This document shows, one piece after another, positions 12,102 through 49,512 of a stretch of 49,512 nt of DNA. The stretch comes from Candidatus Omnitrophota bacterium. Lineage in GTDB: Bacteria; Omnitrophota; Omnitrophia; Omnitrophales; Aquincolibacteriaceae. The stretch spans positions 1-49,512 of the forward strand of contig JAQTOZ010000001.1 of assembly GCA_028713205.1 (NCBI GenBank), in the 5' to 3' direction. The position numbers and the translations under genes were made by a program. Numbering within the stretch: position 1 is the first letter of the stretch; every line of letters begins with the position of its first letter. The notes below the pieces were generated by a model that made no database searches, had not been told where the DNA came from, and saw only the letters and a list, made by a program, of their open reading frames with translations.

Positions 12102-12126
12102 GCTCAGCTCCTCAAAGGACCGGGGT

Positions 12127-13146: not shown

Positions 13147-13337
13147 CTTAGCTCCGATTTACGATTAGGGCCGTTATGGAATTAGAGCCGACTATTGCCG
13201 GGCACATCAACGGCCGGTTTCAAGCGCCGCAGGCTGAAAAAGTCCAGGACATAATTGCGCGCAACAAAGGTATAATAGATCAGATCCTCGGCGGAGTCCA
13301 GAGGGCGTATCCGATAACCATGACGGAGGGAATGAGG

Positions 13338-13856
13338 ATGAAAAAGATAGTGATCGGCAGTGCTTTGTTTTTATTGGTTTTTGCGTGCCCGGATGTGCGC
13401 GGACAAGATGTTGAAGTGGAAGATACGGAAACGCTTCCCGTTCAATCCGAAGAGACGGCATTGATTTTTGGGACGGTCCTTGATGTGACGCCGGATTTTA
13501 TCCGGCTGCGTTATTATGATCAGGAAAAGGAGCTTCTCAAAGACGAGGTTTTCCAATTCGGCGAGGCCACGAAATTTGAAGATGCTTATGGCATTCAGGA
13601 CATCCGGAATGGTGATTCGGTCGAAATTGAGTATCGGACGGTCAAGGGCGAACGGGTGATCCGGTCTATCACATTGAACAAATCCAAAGGGCGGAAGGCC
13701 TCCGTCGCGAAGCCTTCTCCGGCGGTCCTTGCCAAGAGCTTGAAGAGGGCAGGTGACAAATTTTCCGGAGACGCGGTGGGCCTGGTCGCGGAAGAACTGG
13801 AAAAAGGCGAGAAGAAAGTTAACCGGGAAGATCAGGAAGTGAATAACGCGAACTGA
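13338..13856 (+). CDS. Secreted hypothetical protein (signal peptide, Lys/Glu-rich C-terminus)
   Basis: GGAGGG at 13325-13330, then ATG 13338 (ATG 13332 is also possible). MKKIVIGSALFLLVFACPDVRGQ is signal-like. No family recognised. Confidence 0.5.
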   Translation: MKKIVIGSALFLLVFACPDVRGQDVEVEDTETLPVQSEETALIFGTVLDVTPDFIRLRYYDQEKELLKDEVFQFGEATKFEDAYGIQDIRNGDSVEIEYRTVKGERVIRSITLNKSKGRKASVAKPSPAVLAKSLKRAGDKFSGDAVGLVAEELEKGEKKVNREDQEVNNAN

Positions 13857-13871
13857 GCACAAGGTGAAGTT

Positions 13872-29053: not shown

Positions 29054-29092
29054 AAGCAACTCCTTTATCTATGAATTTTAGGTCCGCCGGAT

Positions 29093-29433: not shown

Positions 29434-31104
<1,671 letters not shown>

Positions 31105-35186: not shown

Positions 35187-35215
35187 TTGACATGCATGCA
35201 TATGCCATATAAATT
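35187..35215 (+). promoter_or_regulatory. Candidate sigma-70-like promoter for the giant ORF
   Basis: Perfect TTGACA at 35187-35192, followed by TATAAA/ATAAAT/TAAATT candidates at 15-17 nt spacing in a very AT-rich stretch ~95-120 nt upstream of ATG 35308. Confidence 0.35.
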
Positions 35216-35307: not shown

Positions 35308-35397
35308 ATGACAAGATCGAAATATAACAAAATTCTAGCGTTCTTGTTAAGTATTACTCTCAGCTTCTTTTCTGTCCCCGTCTGTCCAGCAGGTGCA
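35308..35397 (+). other. Sec-type signal peptide of the giant protein
   Basis: MTRSKYNKILAFLLSITLSFFSVPVCPAGA / NVDD: a basic n-region, hydrophobic core, and small residues (A-G-A) before the likely cleavage site. Confidence 0.7.
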
Positions 35398-38300
35398 AAC
35401 GTTGACGACAGGGGATCCTTAAGTTCAGTACCCGGGAGTGCCCCCGTTCCCACAACGCCTATACTTCCGGGTGGATCCCCTGTTCCTCAAACGCCAGAAA
35501 GTCCCCAATTACCGGTTAGTGATGGAATGTTCTCAGAGCAATTCGGTGATTGGGGGACCCCTCAACCGATGCAAGATGAAGAAGACCTGAAAACTGAGGA
35601 AGAAAAACAGGAATTGAAAGAAGCCGTAGAAGAAAAGCAGCCCGCCGCGGAACTCGCGACAGAAGAAAAGGAAGAGGAGAAGAATTATACCGAGTCTGAG
35701 AGAACGGCGGAAGGTCGAGTCCAGTTCGGATCGGCGATTAACATGAATGACGCTACGTTTGAGGTAATTGATGTGTCGCCGGAGGGAATCGAAGAGATCA
35801 AAGAAAATCTGGAGGCATTCCGTTCCTATGAAGATGCCGAACAGGTTTTTGCTTGCGTCGATGACGGTGGCAGCATGGAATGTTTTTACGGCACGAGCGG
35901 CGAAGAGGAAAACGCGCATTTCCACCAAATGATCTCCGAGTATTTAAGCGATAAGACGACGCTGTTTGTGCTTCACAATCACCCATATGACAACGAGGGG
36001 TTGCCCACGCCCAGCGATACGGATTATCAACTCGCCGTCCAAGGGGATTTGTGGGAGGCGGTGGGCAATGTGAATGGCTGGGAAAAATACGGCCATGACG
36101 GAGATCAGGGAGAGATTGCCGATGAAACGATTATTGAAAGGCTCAAGGAACTGATGGCTGTTTACGGTCAGACGAAAGATCCTCTTGCGGCAAAAGAGAC
36201 ACGAAATGAACTCAACGGACTTTTGACTTATGTGGACCAATTCCGGGAGCTTCAGAAAACCCTGGGTGAAACGGAACCGGGAGTCGTTTACCGCGCGGCC
36301 GAGAAACCGGTGGCCCAAGATCAATACGTTACGATGAAGGAAGATGCGATTCAAACCGGACAGTTGACCGCGACGGGTTCCGGGATATTGACTTATTATT
36401 TGAGTCAGGGGCCGCAACACGGAACGGTCACGGTGGATCCTAACGGATCCTATGTGTATCAGCCGGACGCGAATTATAACGGCACCGATGCTTTTAGTTT
36501 CGTGGCGAAAAACAATTTGGGATTCGGGTCAACGATCGAAGATTTTAAAACCAATTTGTCCAATCCGAACGGTTTGGAATTTGACTACGAGCACGGCTGG
36601 GTTTATTGGTGCGAAACGGGGAGCGGATCAATCAAGCGGGCAAGAATCGACGGTACGGGGAGCGTGACGACCCTGGCGTCCGTAGGCGGTATTCCTGCGG
36701 ACCTCAAACTGGATCTGGCAAATGGGAAGATTTATTGGCGTGATACCGCCATGAAAGCGATACGGCGCATCAATATCGACGGAAGCGGCACGGCCGCAAC
36801 GGTCGTCGGCCCTTCGCAAATATCGGATATCCGTGAAATCCAGTTGGATGTACAAGGGGGCCGGATTTATTGGTCCGATTACGGCAGTTATAATGGAATA
36901 CGCTCCTGCAGATTAGACGGTACCGATGTTCGAACGATTTTGTCGGGCTTCAAAGCGTTTTCGTTTACCTTGGATGTCCCCAACGGAAAAATTTATTACC
37001 AAAAATTCACGCGCTGGGGCGATCCGATGCCCTTGATGCGGTCCAACCTGAACGGTACCGTATCGGAAACGGTATTGAGCACGATGCCGTCGTCTTCGGG
37101 CATGACGATCTCGGACGGATATATTTATTGGTCGGGCAGTTATGTGGATGACAACGCCGTGCAACGGGTCAAGTTAAGCTCTGCCAATCCTGCCAATATC
37201 GAAACGGTGGTGAGAAGCGTCATGGGATGTTTGGCCGACAGCCTTTGGCTGGATAGCCGGAACGGTTACCTGTATTGGACGGATACTCTCACCGGCAAGA
37301 TCAAACGTGTTTCTTTCGGTACGGTTTCGAATCCGGCAACGGTGACCATGAATATAGCTCCGGTCAATGATGCTCCGGTAGCGCGCGCCGATAACTATGC
37401 GGTCAATGAAGATGCCAATGGCGGGCTTGTGACAGGTTCGGCCAACGGCGTTCTGGCGAATGACACAAATCCGGACGGGCATGCGCTTGCGGTTCAGTTG
37501 GCTTCGGGCCCCTCCCACGGGACACTTCAATTGAATAGCGACGGTACTTTTACCTATGTCCCCAACACCCATTTCTACGGCACGGATACATTTCAGTATT
37601 ATGCGTCATATGAGGCATACGGTACGCCCCAGGATCTTACGAGGTGGTCATCAACGAGTGCCAATGATCTGGTTGTCGCGAATGGGAAAATGTATACCTT
37701 CGACGGACAAAACGGGTCCATTACCGTGGCCAATATCAATGGTTCAGGGAGAACGACCCTGATTTCTTCTTCGGCCTTGGGAGGTAAAGCCGTTTACAAC
37801 CTGGCGGTTGATCAAGTCAACGGCAAAATTTATTGGATCGATAGCAGCAATAAAATCAGGTGGGCGAATTTGGACGGTTCCGGTGTTGCGAATCTCCCGG
37901 TTACGATCTCCGCAACCAATATCTCGAAAGCGCAACTCAAAATCGATACGGTCAATCAGAAAATCTTGTGGACGAGCACCAATTATATTTACTGCGCGAA
38001 CCTGAACGGCACCGGTCAGAGAGCCCTCGGTTACACGCTCTCGCCGTATCCGATCGAGTCGTTGGCGATTGACGCACAAAATAACAAACTCTATTGGAGC
38101 GGACATTCCAATTTTCAAGATACATTCCCGGGGACTAATTTGTTCCGCGTGAACCTGAGCAATCTCTACAGCGGTACCGTGGTTGAGGAAGTGGTTGTGA
38201 AAAATGTTGAGGCGAAAAGCATCGAAATTGCCGGCGGCAAGCTTTATTACACGACTTGGGAAAATGGCACTCAATCCGGTAGTTCGGTCAAGCGTGTGGA

Positions 38301-41300
38301 CAGTCTTGCTGCGACCAATCTCCTGGATAGCGATACCGTTACGGTTGTTTCCCATGCGACGGGTGTTTCGGGCCAGCGGACGATCAAAGGGGACATTCAG
38401 GCGGCCAGTGACGGCACCGTCTATTGGCTCGAACAGGAAGCCGCGGGGTCGTCGCCGACTGTGATTCGGAAAGTTTCTTGTCCGGCCCGCACCGATCCGG
38501 CAACGGTTACCATTGATATAGCTCCGGTCAATGATGCGCCGGTTGCGACACCTCCCGCCGTGGGTGTGGTTCTTGCGGTCGGGACAAACATAACTCTTGG
38601 GGGAAGCGATGTGGATGGGGATATGCTTTCCTATGTGATTGTTGCCGGGCAGACGAGCGGGCGTACCGGCCATGGAACGTGGCAGCAATATGATCCTAGC
38701 GATTCAAGCAAGATCCGGTATGTCCCGGACGCCAATTATGAAGGCGCGGATTCTTTTACCTACAAGGTTTGGGACGGCAAAGCGTATTCGGCGGTTGTGA
38801 CGGTGAATTTCACGGTCGATGCCGTATGTCCCGTCATTCGAATCACAAGTTCGAATGAGATCAACCAACCGGGGACCTATGTTCTTACATTTATGGTGGA
38901 CGGGGTTGCGGAAAGTGCCAGCGGTGATGCACTCAGAGCCTTGCGCTTACCGCCGGGTAATTTGACGGAGGGATATAACGATTTTCAGATTGTGCGCCGT
39001 GACGTGGCCGGCAATGAAACGAGATTAACGTTCAGAATAACAGTGGATACGGTACCGCCGACGGTGACGGTGAGCGGGATTGTCAATGATTCGGTGGTGA
39101 ATTCAAGAGATGCGACGCTTACGATGGGCGGAGACGGTGTCGTTGCCTACAAGATCATCAAGTTCGATACCTGGGACTGGTCAGACGGCGGGCTGGTGAG
39201 TCAGCCTTATTATTTTCGCAATCTTTCCGAAGGCCGGCATTCGGTTTCGGTGATCGGCAAAGATGCAATCGGGAATTGGCAGACAACGCCGACCGTCATC
39301 ACGTGGACGGTGGATACGGTACCGCCGACGGTGACGGTAAGCGGGATTGTCAATAATTCGGTGGTGAATTCAAAGGATGCGACGATCACGATGGGCGGTG
39401 TCGGGGTCGTGGCATATAAAATTAAATGGAATGATTGGCCGGATTATCTCGATGGCGGATTGGTGTCTCAGCCATATCATTTTTATAATCTCCCCGAAGG
39501 CAGGAATACGATTTCGGTCATAGGAAAAGACGCCGCGGGGAACTGGCAGACAACGCCGACGGTTATCAATTGGACGGTGGATACGGTACCGCCGACGGCT
39601 GTGATCAGCGGAGCACCTCCGGCACAGACAACCGTTACCGACGCGACGCTGACGATCAGCGGTGATCAGGTCACCGCTTATAAATTTAAGTTGGATAGCG
39701 GAAATTATTCCGCCGAGACGGCGGCAGGGACTCCGATTACTTTGCATGGCCTCTCAGAAGGTCAGCATGCTGTCAGCGTTCTTGCCCGGGATGCAGCCGG
39801 TAACTGGCAGGCGGCCCCGACACAAGTGTCCTGGACGATTTTACCGCGGGAACGGGTCGTTCAAACTTTACCGTCCGTCGGATCCGATGGCGGGGTTCAG
39901 AGAGTGATTGTCGCCGAAATTTATGATGCAGCGGGAGCTAAAACCTATTCTGCGAGAGTGCAAAAACAAAATGCGGACGGAAGTTATCAAACCCTGCGTG
40001 AGTATGCGATCGCCAGTTACGGAGCGATCCAAGTGGTTGATACGACCTGGCAAAAGACGAGCTATTTTGTCGCAACGGCGACCGACGGCCGCAACTTGAC
40101 CTTCGGCTATTTGGAACCGAAACCGTCCGGGACAAAAAATTCATTTGAAGATGTGGATGGCCGCATGATTTACCGGAGCGGCCAGATTACGATCGGCTAT
40201 GCCGGCGGCGAGAATTTTATGGCCGATCTATCGGGTGCGGTTCCGTATGCAAAGATAACCCATTCAAACGGTCAGAGCGGCAGTCAATACCGGGATGTCG
40301 CCGTATACCATTACACGCAAACAGCTCCGGCCGGAAAGAAGCTGTTGTTTCAATATCAAGACGGGCCTGCCTCGAGCAATTGGAGTCCGATCTACAACGT
40401 CTATGGAATTCTTGAGCTTTCCGCGAAGGCTGATCCGTTGGTGGGAGATGAAAATATTCCCGTGACCGGCAAGATCACGGTGACGGATCCGGATGGTGAC
40501 AATATTACCTACACCCTTTTGTCGAATCCTGCGCACGGTACCGTGACGTTTGATGCGGCGGGGAATTACACCTTTAACCCCACAGCACACTGGTATGGTT
40601 CGGACACATTTCAGGTGAGGGTGAGTGACGGGAAGGCGACCTTGACGGTCAAGATCCCGGTGACGATTAATATGAAGGCGAATCCTCCGGCGATTGTCAC
40701 GATCCCGAATCAGAATGTCAACGAAGGAAGCACGCTCAATGTCAATATCAACGCAAGTTCGCAGGAACCGGGCGCCAGCGGGCTGAACGTCAGTGCGGTG
40801 ATGGTCAACGCCAGCGGCCAGGAAGTGGTTTTGCCGAATTGGATGCAATTGGTGACGAATGCGGACGGGACAAAGAAATTAGCGGTGACGCCCGGCCATG
40901 ATGCGTCGGGGACTTATAAACTTCGCGTAAAAGCGCAGGATACGGCGGGACAAGCGCAAGTCGATTTTACGTTGACGATTAACAATGTTGCCGTGCCGCC
41001 GGTGATGACGCCGGTTACGGAGAAGAATACCAACGAAGGGACCGAGTTATCCATCGGATTGACGGCCCTGTCCCGTGATCCCAATGCGGGTGATTTGATA
41101 TTCAATGCGGTATTATTGGACGCCAACGGGCAGGAAATTCCGTTGCCCGATTGGCTGAATTTTTCGAAGCTTGCCTCCCGCAATCCCCGAACCGGGGAGA
41201 TCACATGGTATTTGATCGCAGCTCCCGGTCATGATGCGTCGGGGACATACCGGATCCGTGCGAAAGCGACCGATTTGGCCGGAGAAGCACAGACCGATTT

Positions 41301-44300
41301 TACACTGACTATTAATAATGTAGCCGTTCCGCCGGTGATGACGCCGATTCCCGATCAGAATATAAGTGAAGGCACTACGTTGGATGTGAATATCAGCGCG
41401 CAATCGCAAGATCCCGGTGCCGGAGAGCTGACCGTGAGTGCGGTGATGTTAAATGAGCAAGGTCAGGAAGTGGCTTTGCCGGGCTGGATGCAAGTGTCTT
41501 CGAATGCGGATGGGAGCTGGGAATTAGTCGTCAGTCCGGGGCATAACGATGCGGGGTCCTATTCCATTCGCGTGAAAGCAACGGATTTGGCCGGTGAAGC
41601 GCAAACAGAGTTTGCGTTGACGGTCAATGATGTCGTCAACACTCCCGTTGCGGACCCTCTGACGGTGACGATCAACGAAGACTCTCCTTACACGGGTCAA
41701 TTGACGGGCACCGGAGAGAACCTCACTTTCCATCTTGCCCAGCCGCCGGCGCATGGAACCGTCGTGCTGAATTTGGACGGGACGTTTACCTATACGCCGG
41801 CCGGTGATTACAGCGGCGATGATACGTTTACCTATTATGCGGAAACCGGCTCGGTGGAGGGCCCCGAAAATTTTGCGGATGCTTTTACGAATCCGGCACA
41901 TCCGATTGTGAATCCTGCCGACGGATTTACTTATTGGGTGGAGAACGGTCAGGCCCTGATGCGAAAGAAAAGCGACGGGACCGGAAGCGTTGAAGAAGTG
42001 TTCCGTTTCCCTTACGGTGCTTACCAGGAAATGTCGGAGATTACACTGGATACCGGGCGGGGAAGAATTTATTACACGGACAATACCGGCTATGGCATGG
42101 GCATCTTAAAATGGCTCGACCTGAGTGACAACAGCCTCCATGTGTTGTCGACTCAGAGCGGATTGAAATCGCAGCTGACCTATGACGCGGCCAACAATCA
42201 GGTCTTATGGTACGACGCGGGCGGTGGCCGCATTCGCGGAATTAGCGTGGATGATCCGGACGGTCCTGTGAGGACCATTATTGATTGGTCTTACAATGCC
42301 GGTGTGGGACATACCTATGCGATCGGCGGCGGGAAAATTTATTGGCAAACGGTCGGCGATGAAAATGTGAAGCTCAAATGCGCGAATTTGACGGGGCCCT
42401 TCCCGATACCGGATTCGCAGCATACGGTTTTATTGAATTCCGTACATTTTGCCAGCAGCATGGCGGTGGATGCCGAAGGAGGGAAGGTTTATTGGATGCA
42501 CGGACACGATCAATCCATCCAGCGTTTAACGCTCAACGGCGGAAATGTGGAAACGGTGGTCCCGAGTCTGAGCCCCTATTCCTATACCATGCTGAATCTT
42601 TCATTTGATGAAACGAACGGCGATCTTTATTGGGCGAATACCACGGGGCATCCGACCATTCAACGGGCCGGAACCATTCCTCCGTCTGCTCCGGCCGCGG
42701 CAACGTTCCATGTGACACAGGTGCCCGATGCGCCGGTGATCACGCCGGTGGATCCGCAAACCGTCGATGAAAATCAGACGTTGCAATTTACGGTCCATGC
42801 CAGCGATCCTGATCAAGGGGACGTCCTGAGTTTCTCGGTCGAGCATATGCCGGACGGAGCGATGTTTGATCCGGCGACCGGGGTTTTTACCTGGCAACCC
42901 GGGGCCGATGCCGGCCGTACGGATCCGTATATCGTTCATTTGATCGTGACGGACCAAGATGGGCTTATCAGTACGATCGATGTGCGCATTACGGTCAATA
43001 ATGTGAACCAAACGCCTGTTGCCGATGCGAAACAGGTCGAAGGAACGGAAGATGTTTCTCAGGTGATTGTGCTATCGGGGACGGATGATGACGGTGATGA
43101 TTTGACATATGAGATCGTAGGAGGTCCCGGGCATGGGACGCTGAGCTGTGACGGAAATCGTTGCACGTACACCCCGGCGGCAAATTATAACGGGCATGAT
43201 TCTTTTACTTACCGTGTTTACGACGGTACGGAATATTCCGAAATTGCGGCGGTGGATATCGATCTGGTCGCAGTCAATGATGCGCCGGTGGCGCGGGATG
43301 CCGAGGGCACGGCGGACGAGGATAACGAATTCGTTTACCGGTTGAGTGATTTGATCAGTGATATTGATACGGCGATGAGCGGTTTGAGAATTTTCGGCGC
43401 GAGTCAGCCTATGCACGGCGGCATCATCATCGATTACGATAACGGCGAGTTTATTTATGTGCCGGATGAAAACTGGCATGGCACCGAGGTTTTTCAGTAT
43501 ATCGTCACGGACGGAGAGAAGACCTCGCAGATCAAACAAATTGTCATTCATGTGGCGAGTGTCAATGACACCCCGGAGGCAAACGCCGTGAGTGCGGAGA
43601 CAAATGAAGATGCTGTCTTGACGGGGCAGTTGACGGCAGAGGATGTCGATGGTGACGCTTTGACCTATTCATTGGTAGGTCAATCCGAGCATGGGACGGT
43701 GGTGGTCAATGCGGACGGCAGTTACGCGTATACGCCTGCAGCAAATTACAACGGGACGGATAGTTTCACGTTTAAGGTCAATGACGGAACGGTTGATTCC
43801 GAGGCGGTCACGGTGTCGCTCACGATCAAGTCCGTCAATGATGTCCCTGCGGGGAACCCGATGGATGCCGAGACGGACGAAGATGGGCAAGTCACGGGTC
43901 AGCTGACGGCGAGCGATCCTGAAGGGGATGCATTGACGTATTCTTTGGTGGGGCAGGCGGCCCATGGGACGGTGGTGGTCAATGCGGACGGCAGTTACAC
44001 GTATACGCCCGCAGCCAATTACAATGGGACGGACTTTTTTGCGTTTATCGTCAATGACGGTAAAGCCAATTCGGAGCCGGTAACTGTGTCGTTGACCGTG
44101 AAATCGGTCAATGATGCCCCTGTGGCGGATGCCGTCAATGAAGCGACCGATGAAGACGAAGCGATCACGGGGCAATTGACCGCGACGGACATTGATGAAG
44201 ACACTCTTACCTATCTGTTAGTCGCGCAGGCCGGGCATGGGACGGTGGTGATTCATCCGGACGGCAGTTACACCTACACGCCGGTAACCGATTTCAGCGG

Positions 44301-47300
44301 GGCGGATAGCTTCACGTTTAAGGTCAATGACGGTAAGACGGATTCGGCCGAAGTGACGGTCCATATCCGGATCGATGCGGTCAATGATGCGCCGGTTGTG
44401 CAGGACCGCGAGGTAACGATCGGTGAAGATGGGGATGTCTTCTTTGAACTTAGTACGCTTGTTTCGGATGTGGACAGCGCTGCCGGGGATTTCATTTATC
44501 TTATGGCCAAAGGGCCGGAGCATGGCGGTATCGCATGGGACACGGAAACCGGAAGTATTGTCTATGTCCCCGATGCGGACTGGAACGGGACAGATAGTTT
44601 TACATTTTATGTGTCCGATGGGGATAAAATTTCAAGGGAAGCACGATTTACGGTCAAAATCGATGCGGTCAATGATGCGCCGGTAGCCGATGGGGGCAGC
44701 GCCGAAACGGATGAAGATGCGGTGTTGACGGGCCAACTGACCGCGAGTGATGTTGAAGGCGATGCCTTGACGTATTCTTTGGTAGGGCAGGCGGCGCATG
44801 GGACGGTGGTGGTCAATGCGGACGGCAGTTACACGTATACGCCGGTAACAAATTTCAACGGGACGGATAGTTTCACGTTTAAGGTCAATGACGGAACGGT
44901 TGATTCCGAAGCGGTCACGGTATCGCTCACGATCAAGTCGGTTAACGATGCTCCGGTGATGACGCCGATTGAAGATCAGGAAGTGGATGAAAACGGGACG
45001 GTGCGTTTTACCGTGGAGGCCCAGGATGAGGACGGAAGCGCATTGACGCTTTCGGCGCTGGATATGCCTGAAGGTGCGGCATTTGATTTTGCAACGGGCG
45101 TGTTTAGCTGGAAGCCCGGGTATGAACAGGCGGGTACTTATACCGTCCGGTTCAGAGTGACGGACGGTGAATTGGCGGCTGATATTGATGTCAACATTAC
45201 GGTGAATAATGTGAACCGTGCTCCGGTGATCACGCCGGTGGATCCTCAGGTTGTGGATGAAAACTCGGACCTTGATTTTACGGTGAGTGCGAACGATCCC
45301 GACGGCGGGGCATTGACACTCTCAGCGTTTGATTTGCCTGAAGGTGCGACGTTTGATTCTGCGACGGGCGTGTTTAGCTGGAAGCCCGGTTACAATCAAG
45401 CCGGAACTTATACGGTGAAGTTCAGAGTTACAGACGGGGATTTAACGGATGAAATCTCAGTTGAGATCACAGTCAATAATGTGAACCGGCCTCCGGTGAT
45501 TACGCCGATTGAAGATCAGGAAGTGGATGAAAACGGGACGGTGAGATTTACCGTGGAAGCCCAGGATGAGGACGGAAGCGCATTGACGCTTTCGGCGCTG
45601 GATATGCCTGAGGGTGCGGCGTTTGATTTTGCAACGGGCGTGTTTAGCTGGAAGCCCGGGTATGAACAGGCGGGTACTTATACCGTCCGGTTCAGAGTGA
45701 CGGACGGTGAATTGGCGGCTGAGATGAATGTCAACATTACGGTGAATAATGTGAATCGTCCCCCGGTGATTACACCGATTGAAGATCAGGAAGTCAGTGA
45801 GAATAGTCCTGTGACATTTACGGTGTCGGGGACAGATCCCGACCAGGGCACGCAGCTGACGTTCTCGGCGCTTGATTTGCCGGAAGGCGCAACATTTGAT
45901 TCTGCGACGGGCGTATTCAACTGGACGCCGGGTTTTGAGGCAGCGGGAGAATACACACTGACCTTCAAGATCAGCGATGGCGAAGCGGAAGTGACGGAAA
46001 CAGTCAAGATCACGGTCGAGAATGTCAACCGGATACCGGTGGTCGGTACGCAGCAAGTGGAAGGCGCAGAGGATACCGTACAGTCCATTGTGTTATCGGG
46101 AACGGACAGCGACGGGGATACGTTGACCTATGAAATCGTCGGAAATCCGGAGCATGGGACGCTCAGTTGCGACGGGAACCGTTGCACCTACACGCCTGCG
46201 GCAAATTACAACGGTCATGATTCGTTTACATTCCGGGCCTTCGACGGTACGGATTATTCCGAGCCCGCAGCAATTGATTTGAATCTGACGGCAGTCAACG
46301 ATGCGCCTGTGGCGAACGACGTGGAAGTTTCGGTGAATGAAGATACGGATTTGATTTATCAACTCAGCGACATGGTCGGCGACATCGATACGGAGATGGC
46401 GGGACTGCATTTGTATTTTGCGAACCAACCGGAGCATGGCGGGATCGTCGTGGATTATGACTCGGGCGAGTTTATTTATGTTCCGGATGCGGACTGGATC
46501 GGGACGGAAGTGATCCGGTATGTGGCTTCGGACGGCGATAAAACGTCGGAGGAACGGCAGATCGTTATTCATGTCGCGAATGTCAACGATGCGCCCGTGA
46601 TCACGCCGATACCGGATCAGACGGTGGCTGAGGACGGCACGTTGACGTTTACGGTCGGCGTGTCCGATTCCGATGAGGGTGATCCGCTGACATTATCGAT
46701 TGAGGGTTTGCCGGCAGGAGCAACTTTTGATGTCGGGACAAAGACTTTCAGCTGGCAGCCCGGCTATGATCAAGCAGGGACATATACGGTTAGGATTCGC
46801 GCGACGGACGGAGATTTGACCGATGAGATTGACGTCAATATCACGGTCAATAATGTGAACCGTGCACCGGTGATTACGCCGGTTGATCCGCAAGTGGTGG
46901 ATGAAGACTCAGACCTTAATTTTACGGTCAGCGCAAATGATCCCGACGGCGGGGTGTTGACACTCTCAGCGCTTGATTTGCCGGAAGGCGCGGCCTTTGA
47001 TCCCGCGACGGGAGTATTCAGCTGGAAACCCGGATACAATCAGGCCGGCAGTCACACCGTCCGGTTTCAAGTCACCGACGGTGATTTGACGAGTGAGATC
47101 TCGGTTGAGATCACGGTCCATAATGTGAACCGGCCGCCTGAAGCCCAAGCGCAGCAAGTGGAAGGGGCAGAGGATGCTCCTCAAGTGATTGTGTTATCGG
47201 GGAGCGATAACGATCAGGATCACCTGACCTATGAAATCGTCGACGGACCGGAGCATGGGGCCATAAACTGTGATGGCAATCGTTGCACCTACACCCCGGC

Positions 47301-49512
47301 AACGAATTATAACGGGCCTGATTCATTTACATTCCGGGTTTATGACGGTGAAGATTATTCGGAGGCTGCGACGATCGATTTGGACCTGGTCGCGATCAAT
47401 GACGCACCGGTGGCACAAGATGTGGAAGCGACAATGGACGAGGATACGGATTTCATTTTTTCGTTGAGCGACATGGTCGGCGACATCGATACGGAGATGG
47501 CGGGACTGCATTTGTATTTTGCGAACCAACCGGAGCATGGCGGGATCATCGTGGACTATGATTCGGGCGAGTTCATTTATGTTCCGGATGCGGATTGGAA
47601 CGGGACGGAAGTGATCCGGTATGTGGTTTCGGACGGCGATAAAACGTCGGAGGAGCGGCAGATCGTTATTCATGTCGCGAATGTCAACGATGCCCCGGAG
47701 GCGGATGCCGTCAGTGCGGAGACGAATGAAGATGCGGTATTGACGGGGCAGTTGACGGGAACCGATGCGGATGGAAATGCATTGTCGTACGCATTGGTGG
47801 GCCAAGCGGCGCATGGGGTGGTGGTCATGAATGCGGACGGAAGCTATACGTATACTCCGGCGGCAAATTTCAACGGGACGGACAGTTTTACGTTTAAGGT
47901 CAATGACGGGACGGTCGATTCCGGGACGGTCACGGTTTCTCTGACGATCCAATCCGTGAACGATGCTCCGGTGATGACACCCATTGAGGACCGGGAAGTG
48001 AACGAAGACGGAACGGTGAGTTTTACCGTCGAAGCCGATGACATCGATGAAGATTCGTTATCATTATCGGCGCTTGATTTGCCTGCGGGTGCGACGTTTG
48101 ATTCTGAGACAGGTGTGTTTAGCTGGAAGCCCGGCTATGATCAGGCAGGGACCTACGCCCTCCGATTCAAAGTAAACGACGGCCATTTGAATGTGACCCA
48201 GGATGTGATCATTACGGTCAATAATGTGAACCGTGCACCGGTGATCACGCCAGTTGATCCGCAAGTGGTGGATGAAGACTCAGCCCTTAATTTTACGGTA
48301 AGCGCCAATGATCCCGACGGCGGGGCGTTGACACTCTCAGCGCTTGATTTGCCGGAAGGCGCGGCCTTTGATCCGGCGACGGGCGTGTTTAGCTGGAAGC
48401 CCGGATACAATCAAGCCGGAACTTATACGGTGAAATTCCGTGTGACCGATGGTGATTTAACGGGTGAGATCTCGGTTGAGATTACGGTCCATAATGTGAA
48501 CCGCGCACCCGTGATTACGCCGGTTGACCCTCAGATGGTGGACGAAGACTCGGACCTTAATTTTACGGTGAGCGTGAACGATCCCGATGGCGGGGCGCTG
48601 ACCCTATCTGCGCTTGATTTGCCGGAAGGCGCGGCCTTTGATCCGGCGACGGGCGTGTTTAGCTGGAAGCCCGGGTATGATCAGGCCGGAACTTATACGG
48701 TGAAGTTCCGCGTCACGGACGGTGATTTAACGGGTGAGCTTGAAGTCGAGATCACGGTCAATAATGTGAATCGTGTTCCGGTTGCTCACGATATTGAAGT
48801 GACCGTTAACGAAGATCAAACTCTGGCGTTTGATTTACCGGAAGGGTTTGATTTGGACGGGGATCAATTAATGTATTTGCTTGTCAGCGGTCCCGGACAC
48901 GGCGGGATTACCTTTGCGGAACCGGAGAATGAACCTTATACGCGAAAGATGCTCTATATTCCTGATGAAAATTTTGAAGGAACGGATACGTTCACTTTCG
49001 AGATTTATGACGGTCAAGAGTTATCGAATACGGCAACGGTGACAATCAGGGTCAATGGGCTGAACGATGCCCCCATGATTCAGCCGGTTGAACCGCAAAC
49101 AGTTCATGAGGACAGTGACTTACATTTTGCGATTCACACAACCGATCCCGACCTGGGAGATCTTTTAACCTTGTCCGCGCTTGATTTGCCGGATGGCGCG
49201 GCCTTTGATCCGGCGACGGGCGTGTTTAGCTGGAAGCCCGGGTATGAACAGTCCGGAACTTATACGGTGAAGTTTCGAGTCACGGATGGTGATTTGACGG
49301 ATGAAATTGAAGTTGAGATCACGGTCAATAATGTGAACCGTGCACCGGTGATCACGCCGGTTGATCCGCAAGTGGTGGATGAAGACTCAGACCTTAATTT
49401 TACGGTGAGCGCGAATGATCCCGACGGAGGGGCGTTGACACTCTCAGCGCTTGATTTGCCGGAAGGCGCGGCCTTTGATCCGGCGACGGGCGTGTTCGGC
49501 TGGAAGCCCGGT
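35308..49512 (+). CDS. Giant secreted multi-domain surface/adhesin-like protein, 3'-partial (>=4735 codons, no stop in window)
   Basis: Frame +1 coincides with every 60-nt line start. It has an in-frame TGA at 35284-35286, ATG at 35308, and no stop through 49512 in my line-by-line translation. The ORF track contains no frame +1 ORF anywhere in 35.3-49.5 kb, as expected for one ORF lacking a stop. The translation gives coherent domains (signal peptide, JAB-like, YWTD blades, VNDAP- and He_PIG-type modules). Confidence 0.88.
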   Translation, partial: MTRSKYNKILAFLLSITLSFFSVPVCPAGANVDDRGSLSSVPGSAPVPTTPILPGGSPVPQTPESPQLPVSDGMFSEQFGDWGTPQPMQDEEDLKTEEEKQELKEAVEEKQPAAELATEEKEEEKNYTESERTAEGRVQFGSAINMNDATFEVIDVSPEGIEEIKENLEAFRSYEDAEQVFACVDDGGSMECFYGTSGEEENAHFHQMISEYLSDKTTLFVLHNHPYDNEGLPTPSDTDYQLAVQGDLWEAVGNVNGWEKYGHDGDQGEIADETIIERLKELMAVYGQTKDPLAAKETRNELNGLLTYVDQFRELQKTLGETEPGVVYRAAEKPVAQDQYVTMKEDAIQTGQLTATGSGILTYYLSQGPQHGTVTVDPNGSYVYQPDANYNGTDAFSFVAKNNLGFGSTIEDFKTNLSNPNGLEFDYEHGWVYWCETGSGSIKRARIDGTGSVTTLASVGGIPADLKLDLANGKIYWRDTAMKAIRRINIDGSGTAATVVGPSQISDIREIQLDVQGGRIYWSDYGSYNGIRSCRLDGTDVRTILSGFKAFSFTLDVPNGKIYYQKFTRWGDPMPLMRSNLNGTVSETVLSTMPSSSGMTISDGYIYWSGSYVDDNAVQRVKLSSANPANIETVVRSVMGCLADSLWLDSRNGYLYWTDTLTGKIKRVSFGTVSNPATVTMNIAPVNDAPVARADNYAVNEDANGGLVTGSANGVLANDTNPDGHALAVQLASGPSHGTLQLNSDGTFTYVPNTHFYGTDTFQYYASYEAYGTPQDLTRWSSTSANDLVVANGKMYTFDGQNGSITVANINGSGRTTLISSSALGGKAVYNLAVDQVNGKIYWIDSSNKIRWANLDGSGVANLPVTISATNISKAQLKIDTVNQKILWTSTNYIYCANLNGTGQRALGYTLSPYPIESLAIDAQNNKLYWSGHSNFQDTFPGTNLFRVNLSNLYSGTVVEEVVVKNVEAKSIEIAGGKLYYTTWENGTQSGSSVKRVDSLAATNLLDSDTVTVVSHATGVSGQRTIKGDIQAASDGTVYWLEQEAAGSSPTVIRKVSCPARTDPATVTIDIAPVNDAPVATPPAVGVVLAVGTNITLGGSDVDGDMLSYVIVAGQTSGRTGHGTWQQYDPSDSSKIRYVPDANYEGADSFTYKVWDGKAYSAVVTVNFTVDAVCPVIRITSSNEINQPGTYVLTFMVDGVAESASGDALRALRLPPGNLTEGYNDFQIVRRDVAGNETRLTFRITVDTVPPTVTVSGIVNDSVVNSRDATLTMGGDGVVAYKIIKFDTWDWSDGGLVSQPYYFRNLSEGRHSVSVIGKDAIGNWQTTPTVITWTVDTVPPTVTVSGIVNNSVVNSKDATITMGGVGVVAYKIKWNDWPDYLDGGLVSQPYHFYNLPEGRNTISVIGKDAAGNWQTTPTVINWTVDTVPPTAVISGAPPAQTTVTDATLTISGDQVTAYKFKLDSGNYSAETAAGTPITLHGLSEGQHAVSVLARDAAGNWQAAPTQVSWTILPRERVVQTLPSVGSDGGVQRVIVAEIYDAAGAKTYSARVQKQNADGSYQTLREYAIASYGAIQVVDTTWQKTSYFVATATDGRNLTFGYLEPKPSGTKNSFEDVDGRMIYRSGQITIGYAGGENFMADLSGAVPYAKITHSNGQSGSQYRDVAVYHYTQTAPAGKKLLFQYQDGPASSNWSPIYNVYGILELSAKADPLVGDENIPVTGKITVTDPDGDNITYTLLSNPAHGTVTFDAAGNYTFNPTAHWYGSDTFQVRVSDGKATLTVKIPVTINMKANPPAIVTIPNQNVNEGSTLNVNINASSQEPGASGLNVSAVMVNASGQEVVLPNWMQLVTNADGTKKLAVTPGHDASGTYKLRVKAQDTAGQAQVDFTLTINNVAVPPVMTPVTEKNTNEGTELSIGLTALSRDPNAGDLIFNAVLLDANGQEIPLPDWLNFSKLASRNPRTGEITWYLIAAPGHDASGTYRIRAKATDLAGEAQTDFTLTINNVAVPPVMTPIPDQNISEGTTLDVNISAQSQDPGAGELTVSAVMLNEQGQEVALPGWMQVSSNADGSWELVVSPGHNDAGSYSIRVKATDLAGEAQTEFALTVNDVVNTPVADPLTVTINEDSPYTGQLTGTGENLTFHLAQPPAHGTVVLNLDGTFTYTPAGDYSGDDTFTYYAETGSVEGPENFADAFTNPAHPIVNPADGFTYWVENGQALMRKKSDGTGSVEEVFRFPYGAYQEMSEITLDTGRGRIYYTDNTGYGMGILKWLDLSDNSLHVLSTQSGLKSQLTYDAANNQVLWYDAGGGRIRGISVDDPDGPVRTIIDWSYNAGVGHTYAIGGGKIYWQTVGDENVKLKCANLTGPFPIPDSQHTVLLNSVHFASSMAVDAEGGKVYWMHGHDQSIQRLTLNGGNVETVVPSLSPYSYTMLNLSFDETNGDLYWANTTGHPTIQRAGTIPPSAPAAATFHVTQVPDAPVITPVDPQTVDENQTLQFTVHASDPDQGDVLSFSVEHMPDGAMFDPATGVFTWQPGADAGRTDPYIVHLIVTDQDGLISTIDVRITVNNVNQTPVADAKQVEGTEDVSQVIVLSGTDDDGDDLTYEIVGGPGHGTLSCDGNRCTYTPAANYNGHDSFTYRVYDGTEYSEIAAVDIDLVAVNDAPVARDAEGTADEDNEFVYRLSDLISDIDTAMSGLRIFGASQPMHGGIIIDYDNGEFIYVPDENWHGTEVFQYIVTDGEKTSQIKQIVIHVASVNDTPEANAVSAETNEDAVLTGQLTAEDVDGDALTYSLVGQSEHGTVVVNADGSYAYTPAANYNGTDSFTFKVNDGTVDSEAVTVSLTIKSVNDVPAGNPMDAETDEDGQVTGQLTASDPEGDALTYSLVGQAAHGTVVVNADGSYTYTPAANYNGTDFFAFIVNDGKANSEPVTVSLTVKSVNDAPVADAVNEATDEDEAITGQLTATDIDEDTLTYLLVAQAGHGTVVIHPDGSYTYTPVTDFSGADSFTFKVNDGKTDSAEVTVHIRIDAVNDAPVVQDREVTIGEDGDVFFELSTLVSDVDSAAGDFIYLMAKGPEHGGIAWDTETGSIVYVPDADWNGTDSFTFYVSDGDKISREARFTVKIDAVNDAPVADGGSAETDEDAVLTGQLTASDVEGDALTYSLVGQAAHGTVVVNADGSYTYTPVTNFNGTDSFTFKVNDGTVDSEAVTVSLTIKSVNDAPVMTPIEDQEVDENGTVRFTVEAQDEDGSALTLSALDMPEGAAFDFATGVFSWKPGYEQAGTYTVRFRVTDGELAADIDVNITVNNVNRAPVITPVDPQVVDENSDLDFTVSANDPDGGALTLSAFDLPEGATFDSATGVFSWKPGYNQAGTYTVKFRVTDGDLTDEISVEITVNNVNRPPVITPIEDQEVDENGTVRFTVEAQDEDGSALTLSALDMPEGAAFDFATGVFSWKPGYEQAGTYTVRFRVTDGELAAEMNVNITVNNVNRPPVITPIEDQEVSENSPVTFTVSGTDPDQGTQLTFSALDLPEGATFDSATGVFNWTPGFEAAGEYTLTFKISDGEAEVTETVKITVENVNRIPVVGTQQVEGAEDTVQSIVLSGTDSDGDTLTYEIVGNPEHGTLSCDGNRCTYTPAANYNGHDSFTFRAFDGTDYSEPAAIDLNLTAVNDAPVANDVEVSVNEDTDLIYQLSDMVGDIDTEMAGLHLYFANQPEHGGIVVDYDSGEFIYVPDADWIGTEVIRYVASDGDKTSEERQIVIHVANVNDAPVITPIPDQTVAEDGTLTFTVGVSDSDEGDPLTLSIEGLPAGATFDVGTKTFSWQPGYDQAGTYTVRIRATDGDLTDEIDVNITVNNVNRAPVITPVDPQVVDEDSDLNFTVSANDPDGGVLTLSALDLPEGAAFDPATGVFSWKPGYNQAGSHTVRFQVTDGDLTSEISVEITVHNVNRPPEAQAQQVEGAEDAPQVIVLSGSDNDQDHLTYEIVDGPEHGAINCDGNRCTYTPATNYNGPDSFTFRVYDGEDYSEAATIDLDLVAINDAPVAQDVEATMDEDTDFIFSLSDMVGDIDTEMAGLHLYFANQPEHGGIIVDYDSGEFIYVPDADWNGTEVIRYVVSDGDKTSEERQIVIHVANVNDAPEADAVSAETNEDAVLTGQLTGTDADGNALSYALVGQAAHGVVVMNADGSYTYTPAANFNGTDSFTFKVNDGTVDSGTVTVSLTIQSVNDAPVMTPIEDREVNEDGTVSFTVEADDIDEDSLSLSALDLPAGATFDSETGVFSWKPGYDQAGTYALRFKVNDGHLNVTQDVIITVNNVNRAPVITPVDPQVVDEDSALNFTVSANDPDGGALTLSALDLPEGAAFDPATGVFSWKPGYNQAGTYTVKFRVTDGDLTGEISVEITVHNVNRAPVITPVDPQMVDEDSDLNFTVSVNDPDGGALTLSALDLPEGAAFDPATGVFSWKPGYDQAGTYTVKFRVTDGDLTGELEVEITVNNVNRVPVAHDIEVTVNEDQTLAFDLPEGFDLDGDQLMYLLVSGPGHGGITFAEPENEPYTRKMLYIPDENFEGTDTFTFEIYDGQELSNTATVTIRVNGLNDAPMIQPVEPQTVHEDSDLHFAIHTTDPDLGDLLTLSALDLPDGAAFDPATGVFSWKPGYEQSGTYTVKFRVTDGDLTDEIEVEITVNNVNRAPVITPVDPQVVDEDSDLNFTVSANDPDGGALTLSALDLPEGAAFDPATGVFGWKPG
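35701..36180 (+). other. RadC-like JAB/MPN metallopeptidase-like domain inside the giant protein
   Basis: ...EQVFACVDDGGSMECFYGTSGEEENAHFHQMISEYLSDKTTLFVLHNHPYDNEGLPTPSDTDYQLAV... This compares with the RadC/JAMM signature HNHPSGxxxPSxxD (HxH...S..D). Confidence 0.6.
36565..37320 (+). repeat. YWTD (LDL-receptor class B type) six-bladed beta-propeller 1
   Basis: Six ~40-aa blades centred on GWVYWCE, GKIYWRD, GRIYWSD, GKIYYQK, GYIYWSG, GYLYWTD. Each is followed by an x-I-x-R-x-x-L/I-D/N-G-S/T strand. Confidence 0.65.
37660..38478 (+). repeat. YWTD-type six-bladed beta-propeller 2
   Basis: Blades centred on GKMYTFD, GKIYWID, QKILWTS, NKLYWSG, GKLYYTT, GTVYWLE. Confidence 0.6.
39043..39840 (+). 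repeat. Three tandem 267-bp (89-aa) Ig-like repeats starting VDTVPPT
   Basis: gtggatacggtaccgccgacgg recurs at 39043, 39310 and 39577, an exact 267-bp period. Each unit ends ...GNWQTTPTVI(T/N)WTVDT. Confidence 0.8.
40684..41640 (+). repeat. Three tandem He_PIG/dystroglycan-type cadherin-like modules (105-112 aa variant)
   Basis: Units PPAIVTIPNQNVNEGSTL..., PPVMTPVTEKNTNEGTEL..., PPVMTPIPDQNISEGTTL... Each contains GQE(V/I)xLPxW(M/L) and ends GHDASGTYxxRxKAxDxAGxAQxxFTLT(I/V)N. Confidence 0.7.
41905..42672 (+). repeat. YWTD-type six-bladed beta-propeller 3
   Basis: Blades centred on GFTYWVE, GRIYYTD, NQVLWYD, GKIYWQT, GKVYWMH, GDLYWAN. Confidence 0.6.
42720..49512 (+). repeat. Array of ~25 tandem 90-95-aa modules: ~12 He_PIG-type (NVNRxPVITP...) and ~13 VNDAP-type Ig/cadherin-like ('tandem-95'/Big_9-like)
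   Basis: Module boundaries are marked by recurring ...ITVNNVNR(A/P)PVITP... and ...(K/D)(S/A)VNDAP(V/E)A... every ~270-285 bp. Order read from translation: A, B x7, A x4, B x2, A x2, B x3, A x3, B, A, A(partial). Confidence 0.8.

What the first reader, a model, noticed from the sequence alone, without database searches (positions are those of the whole stretch)
36565..42672. Three six-bladed YWTD (LDL-receptor class B type) beta-propellers embedded in a bacterial surface protein
Three segments (36565-37320, 37660-38478, 41905-42672) each contain exactly six ~40-aa repeats. Each repeat has the hallmark G-x-(I/L/V)-Y-W-x-D/E core followed by x-I-x-R-x-x-L-(D/N)-G-(S/T). One blade has a literal YLYWTD (37270-37287). 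Six such blades are the defining unit of LDLR/LRP/nidogen-type propellers, which act as ligand-binding platforms in animals and are uncommon in prokaryotes. Each propeller is preceded and followed by a VNDAP-type module, so the architecture is a repeated propeller-plus-Ig cassette. This points to a multivalent binding function, possibly towards a eukaryotic or other cellular surface.
Basis: partly seen in the sequence, partly recalled or inferred. Interest (0 to 1): 0.6.

Follow-up and report, generated by a model that had tools for sequence, protein, structure and literature searches.

The report
Three YWTD propellers in giant adhesin
A giant secreted fibre protein of an uncultured Omnitrophota bacterium carries three six-bladed propellers of the LDL-receptor (YWTD) type, each apparently set into a loop of an Ig-like module. 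The propeller type is widespread though unstudied in bacteria, so this is a solid but fairly ordinary new example.

Summary
The open frame 35308-49512 (+) gives at least 4735 aa, starts with a signal peptide and runs off the contig. It holds three propeller segments (aa 418-678, 783-1063, 2198-2461), each with six repeats of 42-59 aa.

- **Sequence:** among solved structures, all three match essentially only YWTD propellers (LRP2/4/6, LDLR, nidogen, sevenless/ROS).
- **Pfam:** Ldl_recept_b passes its cut-off for propellers 1 and 2, but not for 3.
- **Structure:** AlphaFold2 models of propellers 1 and 3 (pLDDT 90 and 87) have only YWTD propellers among their 50 best PDB matches.
- **Rarity:** the claim 'uncommon in prokaryotes' does not hold. 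I found such propellers in at least seven bacterial phyla, and proteins with 3 to about 9 copies. This scan has noted them before on other DNA, about 40 times.
- **Within the phylum:** I found none in 400 other Omnitrophota genomes.
- **Origin:** animal propellers form a supported clade that excludes these three, so recent transfer from animals is unlikely. No EGF module follows.
- **New point (inferred):** each propeller seems inserted between the last two strands of a tandem-95 Ig module, so it would sit on the side of the rod.
- **Function (inferred):** the most likely role is as ligand-binding heads on an adhesin fibre.

New member of a known kind.

The parts
35308..49512 (+). Giant gene, at least 4735 aa, running off the contig's end. 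It is a secreted tandem-95 / He_PIG repeat protein.
   Evidence: Searches show the single open frame. NCBIfam tand_rpt_95 scores 187 bits against a cut-off of 90 on three modules. Big_9, Cadherin_5 and He_PIG hits run throughout. The same gene, aa 88-2365, stands in another public record at 99.96% identity.
35308..35397 (+). Sec-type signal peptide (MTRSKYNKILAFLLSITLSFFSVPVCPAGA|N)
   Evidence: Read from the translation. Basic n-region, hydrophobic core and an AGA-type cleavage site; this is inference.
35650..36297 (+). N-terminal head domain with a RadC/JAB-like HNHP...PSDTD motif. It is not part of the propellers.
   Evidence: Weak Toxin-JAB1 hit. A paralogue with 31% identity lies on contig C292.
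36304..36549 (+). Host Ig module 1 (Big_9/tandem-95). It lacks its last strand before the propeller begins.
   Evidence: Big_9 hit at aa 333-405 covers profile positions 3-79 of 89.
36559..37341 (+). YWTD propeller 1 (aa 418-678), six blades. The literal YLYWTD is at 37267-37284.
   Evidence: Ldl_recept_b 40.9 bits and DUF5050 40.3 bits. PDB phmmer finds YWTD propellers. AF2 pLDDT 89.6, pTM 0.89, 23 strands. The 50 best Foldseek matches are all YWTD, with TM about 0.73 and rmsd about 2 A.
37330..37362 (+). Strand NPATVTMNIAP, probably the displaced last strand of host module 1. VNDAP follows it.
   Evidence: A PSSM of the last strand of 13 uninterrupted modules ranks it 3rd of 2460 eleven-residue pieces in aa 1-2470.
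37363..37632 (+). Host Ig module 2 (Big_9/Cadherin-like), again without its last strand.
   Evidence: Big_9 covers profile positions 1-75 of 89 and Cadherin_5 covers 1-82 of 98 (protein 1).
37654..38496 (+). YWTD propeller 2 (aa 783-1063), six blades. Blades 5 and 6 carry longer loops.
   Evidence: Ldl_recept_b 29.0 bits against a cut-off of 21. PDB phmmer gives LRP4 at 5e-28 and finds only YWTD proteins. Blades are listed. No structure was predicted for this one.
38494..38526 (+). Strand DPATVTIDIAP, probably the displaced last strand of host module 2. VNDAP follows it.
   Evidence: PSSM rank 1 of 2460.
41629..41865 (+). Host Ig module 3 (Big_9), without its last strand.
   Evidence: Big_9 covers profile positions 3-77 of 89 (protein 7).
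41899..42690 (+). YWTD propeller 3 (aa 2198-2461), six blades, the most divergent of the three.
   Evidence: Ldl_recept_b 18.2 bits, below the cut-off. PDB phmmer gives LRP4 at 1e-26 and finds only YWTD proteins. AF2 pLDDT 87.1, pTM 0.84. The 50 best Foldseek matches are all YWTD or ROS1.
42694..42726 (+). Strand AAATFHVTQVP, a possible displaced last strand of host module 3. This is the weakest of the three cases.
   Evidence: PSSM rank 9 of 2460.
42730..49512 (+). Array of about 25 alternating tandem-95 (Big_9/Cadherin_5) and He_PIG Ig-like modules of 90-98 aa, which would form the rod.
   Evidence: Module boundaries. Pfam and NCBIfam hits. DNA-level repeats with a period of about 270.

Best explanation
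**Shown.**
- The gene encodes a giant, Sec-exported protein of more than 4735 aa, built mostly of Ig-like tandem-95 and He_PIG modules.
- It carries three six-bladed beta-propellers of the YWTD (LDL-receptor class B) class.
- The contig's GroEL is closest to those of Omnitrophota.

**Inferred from sequence.**
- Each propeller is a nested insertion in an Ig module.
- The chain leaves a tandem-95 module after its next-to-last strand, forms the closed propeller, and returns to supply the module's last strand just before the VNDAP linker.
- The N- and C-termini of a closed propeller meet in blade 6, which makes such an insertion possible.
- The propellers would therefore sit on the side of the rod, not in line with it.

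**Inferred from what YWTD propellers and giant Omnitrophota proteins are known or proposed to do.**
- The three propellers, only 27-32% identical to each other, act as ligand-binding heads with different specificities.
- They would sit on a long adhesin-like fibre that the small bacterium uses to attach to other cells or surfaces.
- They belong to the large bacterial branch of the YWTD family, not to a recent import from animals.
For: **Propeller class.**
- Pfam Ldl_recept_b is above its cut-off for propellers 1 and 2.
- PDB sequence hits for all three are LRP2/4/6, LDLR, ApoER2, VLDLR, nidogen and sevenless/ROS, apart from two chance-level hits for propeller 1 at E of 0.045 or more.
- AF2 models score pLDDT 89.6 and 87.1.
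- The 50 best PDB fold matches of both models are all YWTD, at TM 0.73-0.76. Propeller 1 fits at rmsd about 2 A.
- Generic viral propellers fit worse, at rmsd 4-8 A.

**Six blades each:**

**Nesting.**
- The three modules before the propellers stop at profile position 75-79 of 89. Uninterrupted modules cover 1-89.
- The eleven residues just after propellers 2, 1 and 3 rank 1st, 3rd and 9th of 2460 against a PSSM of the modules' last strand.
- A metagenomic protein, P0445, shows the same order: Big_9, propeller, 'ATVTVTVVP'.

**Bacterial lineage.**
- The eukaryote-like sequences form one clade (UFBoot 99, SH-aLRT 95) that excludes all three propellers.
- The best hits carry prokaryotic signals such as prepilin, PEP-CTERM, T9SS and dockerin.
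- Named bacterial genomes of several phyla hold the propeller.

**Host and setting.**
- GroEL is 82-87% identical to Omnitrophota MAG proteins.
- Giant ORFs of Omnitrophota are proposed adhesion or predation factors (PMC10066038; bioRxiv 10.1101/2023.11.21.568195).

**Sequence is real:** the same gene stands in another record at 99.96% identity over 2278 aa, covering propellers 1 and 2 whole and about two-thirds of propeller 3.
Against: - No ligand, expression or localisation data exist.
- No bacterial YWTD propeller has a demonstrated function (literature searches).
- The nesting rests on truncated profile hits and a short-strand PSSM.
  - An HMM test without the VNDAP motif gave no score gain.
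  - The earlier 10-bit gain came from VNDAP itself.
  - No whole cassette was folded.
- Propeller 3 misses the Pfam cut-off, and propeller 2 was not modelled.
- The AF2 alignments were drawn from YWTD-type hits, so the fold result is not fully independent of the sequence result.
- The C-terminus and any anchor are unknown, because the gene runs off the contig.
Confidence: 0.7

Rival explanations
1. The propellers are structural or self-association nodes. They would link fibres to each other or to the cell's own envelope, building a coat or mesh, and would not recognise a foreign cell.
For: [quoted passage not shown] In LDLR the propeller binds the receptor's own modules, which is established knowledge. 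Nothing identifies an external ligand.
Against: The three propellers have diverged to 27-32% identity, which fits different partners better than a single self-contact. YWTD propellers of known function mostly bind external protein ligands.
Confidence: 0.18
2. The propellers are enzymes of the SGL, lactonase, arylesterase or strictosidine-synthase kind. Those are six-bladed hydrolases of the same Pfam clan. The fibre would carry them to degrade a target's surface.
For: Propeller 1 just passes the SGL cut-off (27.7 bits against 26.3). Many homologues carry automatic names such as 'sugar lactone lactonase YvrE'. Cell-wall degradation is proposed for giant Omnitrophota proteins.
Against: No lactonase or SGL structure appears among the PDB sequence hits at E up to 1 or among the 50 best fold matches. 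A real SGL enzyme from a relative scores 157 bits on SGL and does not hit Ldl_recept_b. Propellers 2 and 3 have no SGL hit.
Confidence: 0.06
3. The propellers were taken recently from an animal gene and serve to bind a eukaryotic host surface, by mimicking LDL-receptor-family modules.
For: The closest solved structures are all animal proteins. Animal sequences appear among the homologues at similar E-values. An AU test does not reject the grouping of window plus eukaryotic sequences on one side of a branch (p = 0.87).
Against: Identity to animal propellers is only 17-31%. The animal sequences form a supported clade that excludes the three (UFBoot 99, SH-aLRT 95). There is no EGF module and there are few cysteines. 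The PDB holds no bacterial YWTD structure, so its bias explains the animal-only hits. The nearest rows in the tree are prokaryote-type proteins.
Confidence: 0.04
4. The architecture is an assembly artefact, with repeat-rich contigs wrongly joined.
For: The genome is a fragmented MAG of 295 contigs. The gene is repetitive and runs off the contig.
Against: The frame is open for 14.2 kb without a stop. Another public record holds aa 88-2365 at 99.96% identity, including propellers 1 and 2 whole and about two-thirds of propeller 3. The propeller region is not a DNA-level repeat.
Confidence: 0.02

Closest known systems
Animal YWTD beta-propellers (LDL-receptor class B repeats, Pfam PF00058 / SMART LY) of LDLR, LRP2, LRP4, LRP5/6, ApoER2, VLDLR, nidogen and sevenless/ROS1
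   Same: Six blades of about 43 aa. The same strand-2 YW(T)D motif and the I-x-R-x-x-L-D-G-S turn. The predicted fold superposes at about 2-3 A over 220-260 residues. The known role is as a protein-binding platform.
   Different: Only 17-25% identity in the structural alignments. No EGF module follows. There are almost no cysteines (1-3 per propeller). The flanks are bacterial Ig-like modules. The animal sequences form a separate clade.
Bacterial YWTD-type propeller proteins (annotated PF00058 / DUF5050 PF16472; function unknown). Examples are single-propeller proteins with prepilin, PEP-CTERM, T9SS or dockerin signals, and multi-propeller proteins of Anaerolineae MAGs.
   Same: The same propeller family at 25-39% identity. 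They are secreted or surface proteins, often combined with Ig-like modules. Some carry 3 to about 9 propellers.
   Different: This one lies in Omnitrophota, where 400 other genomes searched had none. Here the propellers appear nested inside tandem-95 modules, not placed between domains.
Tandem-95 repeat proteins (NCBIfam NF012211; Pfam Big_9 / Cadherin_5), which are giant bacterial surface proteins
   Same: About 25 modules of 90-98 aa joined by VNDAP-type linkers. The family cut-off is passed.
   Different: Only 2 of 120 giant tandem-95 proteins from the word-based search carried a YWTD propeller, one each. In those the propeller sits at a different point of the host module. In the exhaustive search, 16 further proteins of the top 141 had propellers.
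Giant ORFs of Omnitrophota (Seymour et al. 2023, PMC10066038; West-Roberts et al. 2023, bioRxiv 10.1101/2023.11.21.568195)
   Same: A very long secreted protein in a small genome of the same phylum. The proposed role is adhesion to other cells.
   Different: Those papers list discoidin, laminin_G_3, dockerin, beta-helix and carbohydrate-binding domains. Neither mentions YWTD/LDL-type propellers or tandem-95 arrays.

Membership tests
YWTD beta-propeller (LDL-receptor class B repeat, PF00058) | Six tandem repeats of about 40-45 aa per domain | tested here: met
   Six aromatic cores in each segment, spaced 42-59 aa apart.
YWTD beta-propeller (LDL-receptor class B repeat, PF00058) | YWTD-like motif in strand 2 and the I-x-R-x-x-(L)-(D/N)-G-(S/T) turn | tested here: met
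   The 18-blade consensus is l.lD..NGKiYW.d. Twelve of 18 blades have a literal YW and one a literal YWTD. The DG(S/T) turn is present in about half of the blades.
YWTD beta-propeller (LDL-receptor class B repeat, PF00058) | Pfam Ldl_recept_b score above the gathering cut-off of 21 bits | tested here: inconclusive
   Propeller 1 scores 40.9 and propeller 2 scores 29.0, so both pass. Propeller 3 scores 18.2 and fails. Propeller 3 still matches LRP4 at 1e-26 and matches only YWTD proteins in the PDB.
YWTD beta-propeller (LDL-receptor class B repeat, PF00058) | Six-bladed propeller fold closest to solved YWTD domains, not to NHL, SGL or TolB | tested here: met
   Propellers 1 and 3 give AF2 pLDDT of 89.6 and 87.1, and their 50 best PDB matches are all YWTD. 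Propeller 2 was not modelled. No NHL or TolB Pfam hit appears at E up to 1.
LDL-receptor-family YWTD-EGF unit (animal architecture) | An EGF-like module follows the propeller and packs against it, with LA or EGF modules around it | tested here: not met
   The flanks are Big_9 and He_PIG modules. There is no EGF hit, and each propeller has only 1-3 Cys.
Tandem-95 repeat protein (NCBIfam NF012211) | Several repeats of about 95 aa that score above the family cut-off of 90 bits | tested here: met
   187 bits on three modules. About 25 modules in all.
SGL / gluconolactonase-type six-bladed hydrolases (PF08450) | A full-length match to the SGL profile, and the catalytic metal ligands | tested here: not met
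   Only propeller 1 hits, at 27.7 bits against a cut-off of 26.3 and over short stretches. A real SGL enzyme from a relative scores 157 bits over profile positions 2-244 of 246. Metal ligands were not examined.
NHL-repeat propeller (PF01436) | NHL profile matches in the blades | tested here: not met
   No NHL hit at E up to 1. As a control, the propellers of the G182 giant protein score 184 bits on NHL.

The most novel reading that the evidence does not exclude
The 'Ig module with a YWTD propeller inserted in its last loop' is a reusable cassette. It would mount sideways-facing receptor-binding heads on a rigid fibre. In this Omnitrophota nanobacterium the three diverged heads would recognise surface molecules of the cells it attaches to or preys on. 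If so, this would be the first handle on what bacterial YWTD propellers bind.
Probability: 0.25. Interest if true: 0.5.

Novelty: new member of a known kind. Interest (0 to 1): 0.3.

Why it matters
- Bacterial YWTD propellers form a large family for which I found no described function. Most knowledge of the fold comes from animal receptors.
- This protein offers three diverged copies in one chain, in a phylum suspected of living attached to or preying on other microbes. The domains are small enough to express and test for ligands.
- If the nested Ig[propeller] geometry is confirmed, it would be a tidy example of how giant adhesins display binding modules off-axis.
- The propeller type, multi-propeller proteins and tandem-95 fibres are all already in the databases, so the finding fills in a picture and does not change it.

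Tried and rejected
1. **Short-model genome search.** The genome search with the 42-position PF00058 model found nothing anywhere, not even in the window's own genome. The tool is insensitive for so short a repeat, so I discarded the result and repeated the search with the whole-propeller alignment.
2. **Divergent alignment as a locus query.** A single protein was used instead.
3. **HMM test of nesting.**
   - Splicing the pre- and post-propeller parts gained about 10 bits.
   - The gain came from the next module's VNDAP motif.
   - Without that motif there was no gain.
   - I replaced the test with a last-strand PSSM ranking.
4. **AU tests.**
   - The test on the 118-row tree did not finish in 576 s.
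   - On 42 rows, monophyly of the three propellers was not rejected (p = 0.94).
   - Their grouping with the animal clade was not rejected either (p = 0.87).
   - Their placement within the bacterial radiation is therefore unresolved.
5. **An apparent orthologue.** P0365 looked like one at '58% identity', but it is the same gene from another record at 99.96%.
6. **Weaker propeller matches in relatives.** These turned out to be SGL, 7-bladed lactonase/YncE and thioredoxin-NHL proteins. The G182 giant protein's propellers are NHL. None is YWTD.
7. **Viral fold library.** It gave only generic propellers at rmsd 4-8 A.
8. **Literature searches.** Searches for bacterial YWTD, PF00058 and DUF5050 found no functional study.

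Full report
**What is there**

The window is a whole 49.5-kb contig (C53) of a 3.15-Mb, 295-contig genome with 51% G+C.
- From 35308 to the contig's end runs one open frame of 4735 codons.
- It starts with a Sec-type signal peptide. About 95 nt upstream lies a TTGACA-17-TATAAA promoter-like site.
- Upstream, on the opposite strand, are housekeeping genes: a TsaD-family (PF00814) gene, alanine racemase, a biotin/lipoate ligase-family (PF03099) gene, type III pantothenate kinase and two GroEL genes.
- The nearer GroEL is 82-87% identical to proteins named 'Candidatus Omnitrophota/Omnitrophica bacterium'. This supports the phylum that earlier notes of this scan gave.

**The observation**

Each of the three segments has exactly six repeats.
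- The segments are aa 418-678, 783-1063 and 2198-2461.
- The aromatic cores are spaced 42-59 residues apart.
- The 18-blade consensus, l.lD..NGKiYW.d, is the YWTD signature. Twelve blades have a literal YW and one a literal YWTD. The DG(S/T) turn survives in about half.
YLYWTD lies at 37267-37284, one codon before the quoted place.

**Which propeller family**

- Pfam:
  - Ldl_recept_b scores 40.9, 29.0 and 18.2 bits for propellers 1, 2 and 3, against a cut-off of 21.
  - For propeller 1, DUF5050 (40.3 bits) and SGL (27.7 bits) are cross-hits of the same clan.
  - There is no NHL or TolB hit.
- Solved structures:
  - For all three, the sequence matches are LRP2, LRP4, LRP6, LDLR, ApoER2, VLDLR, nidogen and sevenless/ROS.
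  - Whole-protein E-values reach 1e-80, and single-propeller chains reach 1e-14.
  - Propeller 1 also has two chance-level hits, to unrelated chains, at E of 0.045 or more.
- Predicted structures:
  - The AlphaFold2 models used a 72-row alignment of homologues.
  - Propeller 1 has pLDDT 89.6 and pTM 0.89. Propeller 3 has pLDDT 87.1 and pTM 0.84.
  - The propeller 1 model has 23 strands. The 24th is probably supplied by the residues just upstream, as in the usual closure of blade 6.
  - The 50 best PDB fold matches of both models are all YWTD propellers, at TM 0.73-0.76. Propeller 1 fits at rmsd about 2 A.
  - Viral propellers fit only at 4-8 A.
- Controls:
  - The propellers of another Omnitrophota giant protein (G182) score 184 bits on NHL.
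  - An SGL enzyme of a relative scores 157 bits on SGL.
  - Neither hits Ldl_recept_b, so the profiles do tell these families apart.
- Caveats: propeller 2 was not modelled. The alignment behind the models was drawn from YWTD-type hits.

**The rest of the protein**

In order along the chain:
1. Signal peptide.
2. An acidic linker.
3. A head domain with a RadC/JAB-like HNHP...PSDTD motif.
4. A Big_9 module with propeller 1.
5. A Big_9 module with propeller 2.
6. A further Big_9 module.
7. Three Big_13-like Ig repeats.
8. About 150 aa with no family hit, followed by a Big_9 module.
9. Three He_PIG modules.
10. A Big_9 module with propeller 3.
11. About 25 alternating tandem-95 and He_PIG modules of 90-98 aa joined by VNDAP or VNRAP linkers.

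NCBIfam's tandem-95 model is passed, at 187 bits against a cut-off of 90.

The gene probably continues on contig C24. Its minus strand opens in frame with He_PIG repeats 92% identical to the window's. It ends 754 aa later, after about 520 aa without any family hit. That link is inferred, not shown.

**Nested insertion (inference)**

- The three Ig modules just before the propellers match Big_9 only to profile position 75-79 of 89. Uninterrupted modules match 1-89.
- Directly after each propeller, and before the next VNDAP, comes a short strand that looks like the usual last strand of a module. The three strands are NPATVTMNIAP, DPATVTIDIAP and AAATFHVTQVP. A usual last strand reads, for example, EAVTVSLTIKS.
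- A PSSM of that strand from 13 uninterrupted modules ranks the three post-propeller pieces 3rd, 1st and 9th of all 2460 eleven-residue pieces in the N-terminal half.
- An HMM test was not informative. Its apparent gain came from the VNDAP motif.
- I read this as each propeller being inserted between the last two strands of its host module, so that it hangs off the side of the rod.
- P0445, a metagenomic protein, shows the same order.
- In two other tandem-95 giants (P0196, P0200) the single propeller sits at a different point of its host module.

**How common, and where from**

- A word-limited search with propeller 1 found 125 proteins of 160-510 aa.
  - Nearly all had precomputed PF00058.
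  - Many carried prokaryotic signals: a prepilin N-terminus, PEP-CTERM, T9SS, dockerin or PASTA.
- Named genomes with the propeller include Phycisphaerae, Saprospiraceae, Cytophagales, Chryseobacterium, Anaerolineae, Nocardia, Ignavibacteriales, Salinivirga and Acinetobacter.
- Two Anaerolineae loci hold three or four propellers in one frame.
- The exhaustive search returned 16 further proteins among the top 141 with several propellers each, up to about nine.
- This scan has also noted bacterial YWTD propellers about 40 times on other DNA.
- So 'uncommon in prokaryotes' does not hold.
- Within Omnitrophota the picture differs.
  - Among the 60 nearest relatives and 400 genomes drawn across the phylum, no other genome had a YWTD propeller.
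  - The weaker matches were SGL, lactonase/YncE, thioredoxin-NHL or NHL propellers.
  - This holds only for the genomes searched, many of which are incomplete.
- Trees:
  - In the tree of 118 propellers and in the careful tree of 42, the eukaryote-like sequences fall on one side of a supported branch (SH-aLRT 97 in the larger tree; UFBoot 99 and SH-aLRT 95 in the careful one).
  - That branch excludes all three window propellers.
  - The bacterial side is an unresolved star.
  - AU tests reject neither monophyly of the three (p = 0.94) nor their placement next to the animal clade (p = 0.87).
  - The data argue against a recent animal origin but say little more.
- The three propellers are only 27-32% identical to each other, so they are not recent duplicates.
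- The one apparent orthologue (P0365) is the same gene from another record at 99.96% identity over aa 88-2365. This at least shows that the architecture is not an artefact of this assembly.

**How it most likely works**

- Shown: an exported, rod-like array of Ig-type modules that bears three YWTD propellers.
- Inferred: the propellers are binding heads.
  - In every YWTD propeller with a known function, the top face binds a protein ligand. This is established for nidogen-laminin, LRP6-DKK1, LRP4-agrin and LDLR.
  - Giant Omnitrophota proteins are proposed to mediate attachment to other cells (PMC10066038; bioRxiv 10.1101/2023.11.21.568195).
  - Neither paper, nor a 2026 preprint on long Omnitrophota proteins, mentions this domain.
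- The divergence of the three heads suggests different ligands.
- Rivals:
  - a self-association or coat-building role, which is plausible;
  - an enzyme of the SGL kind, which is unlikely;
  - mimicry acquired from animals, which is unlikely;
  - an assembly artefact, which is very unlikely.

**Verdict**

The claim of rarity and the hint of a eukaryotic target are not supported. This is a new member of a known but functionally uncharacterised bacterial domain family, in a phylum where I found no other instance. Its likely nested-domain geometry is worth one structure prediction. Interest is modest.

Noticed in passing
window 35650-36297 and L032 (G000:C292) 10355-14767: The giant protein's head has a RadC/JAB-like HNHP-x10-SDTD motif behind the signal peptide. 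A 31%-identical copy of this head opens a second large ORF (more than 1471 aa, open at the 3' end) on contig C292. That ORF has no other Pfam match.
   Followed up: partly
window 27419-29059 (-) and 29434-31089 (-): Two GroEL (Cpn60) genes lie in tandem and are 67% identical to each other. I did not look for a GroES gene near them.
   Followed up: partly
L031 (G000:C24) 10695-12959 (-): The contig end opens in frame with He_PIG repeats 92% identical to those at the window's end. A tandem-95 module follows, then about 520 aa with no Pfam hit before a stop. This is probably the missing C-terminus of the giant gene or of a paralogue.
   Followed up: partly
window 39800-40400 (about aa 1500-1700): A stretch of about 150-200 aa between the Big_13-like repeats and the next Big_9 module has no family hit (protein 4, where hits start only at residue 147).
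   Followed up: no
window 35187-35215: A TTGACA-17 nt-TATAAA promoter-like site lies about 95 nt upstream of the giant gene's ATG, in the 640-nt gap to the divergent TsaD-family (PF00814) gene. It is a consensus match only.
   Followed up: no
L029/L030 (G182:C44) 72844-89574: Another Omnitrophota genome, of a different family, encodes an ORF of more than 5577 aa. It has repeated units at its start that I did not scan for families, two NHL propellers (184 bits) and a Gly-rich, beta-helix-like end. Its architecture is unrelated to the window's protein.
   Followed up: partly
L003, L005, L008 (G013, G006, G016) and similar ORFs of about 685 aa in relatives: G013 encodes a conserved protein of about 690 aa with a thioredoxin-like domain followed by an NHL propeller (an NHLRC2-like layout). 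Similar-sized ORFs with weak propeller matches occur in several related genomes but were not scanned.
   Followed up: no
P0365 (public record, 2278 aa): This is the same giant gene, called from internal Met 88 and cut at aa 2365, with one residue different in 2278. The organism or population has therefore been assembled at least twice.
   Followed up: yes
L012, L013 (Anaerolineae MAGs PABI01000035, CAJQMR010000039): Frames of more than 2500 aa hold Laminin_G_3, three or four YWTD propellers, and DUF11, He_PIG and Big_7 modules. This is a multi-propeller bacterial architecture comparable to the window's.
   Followed up: partly
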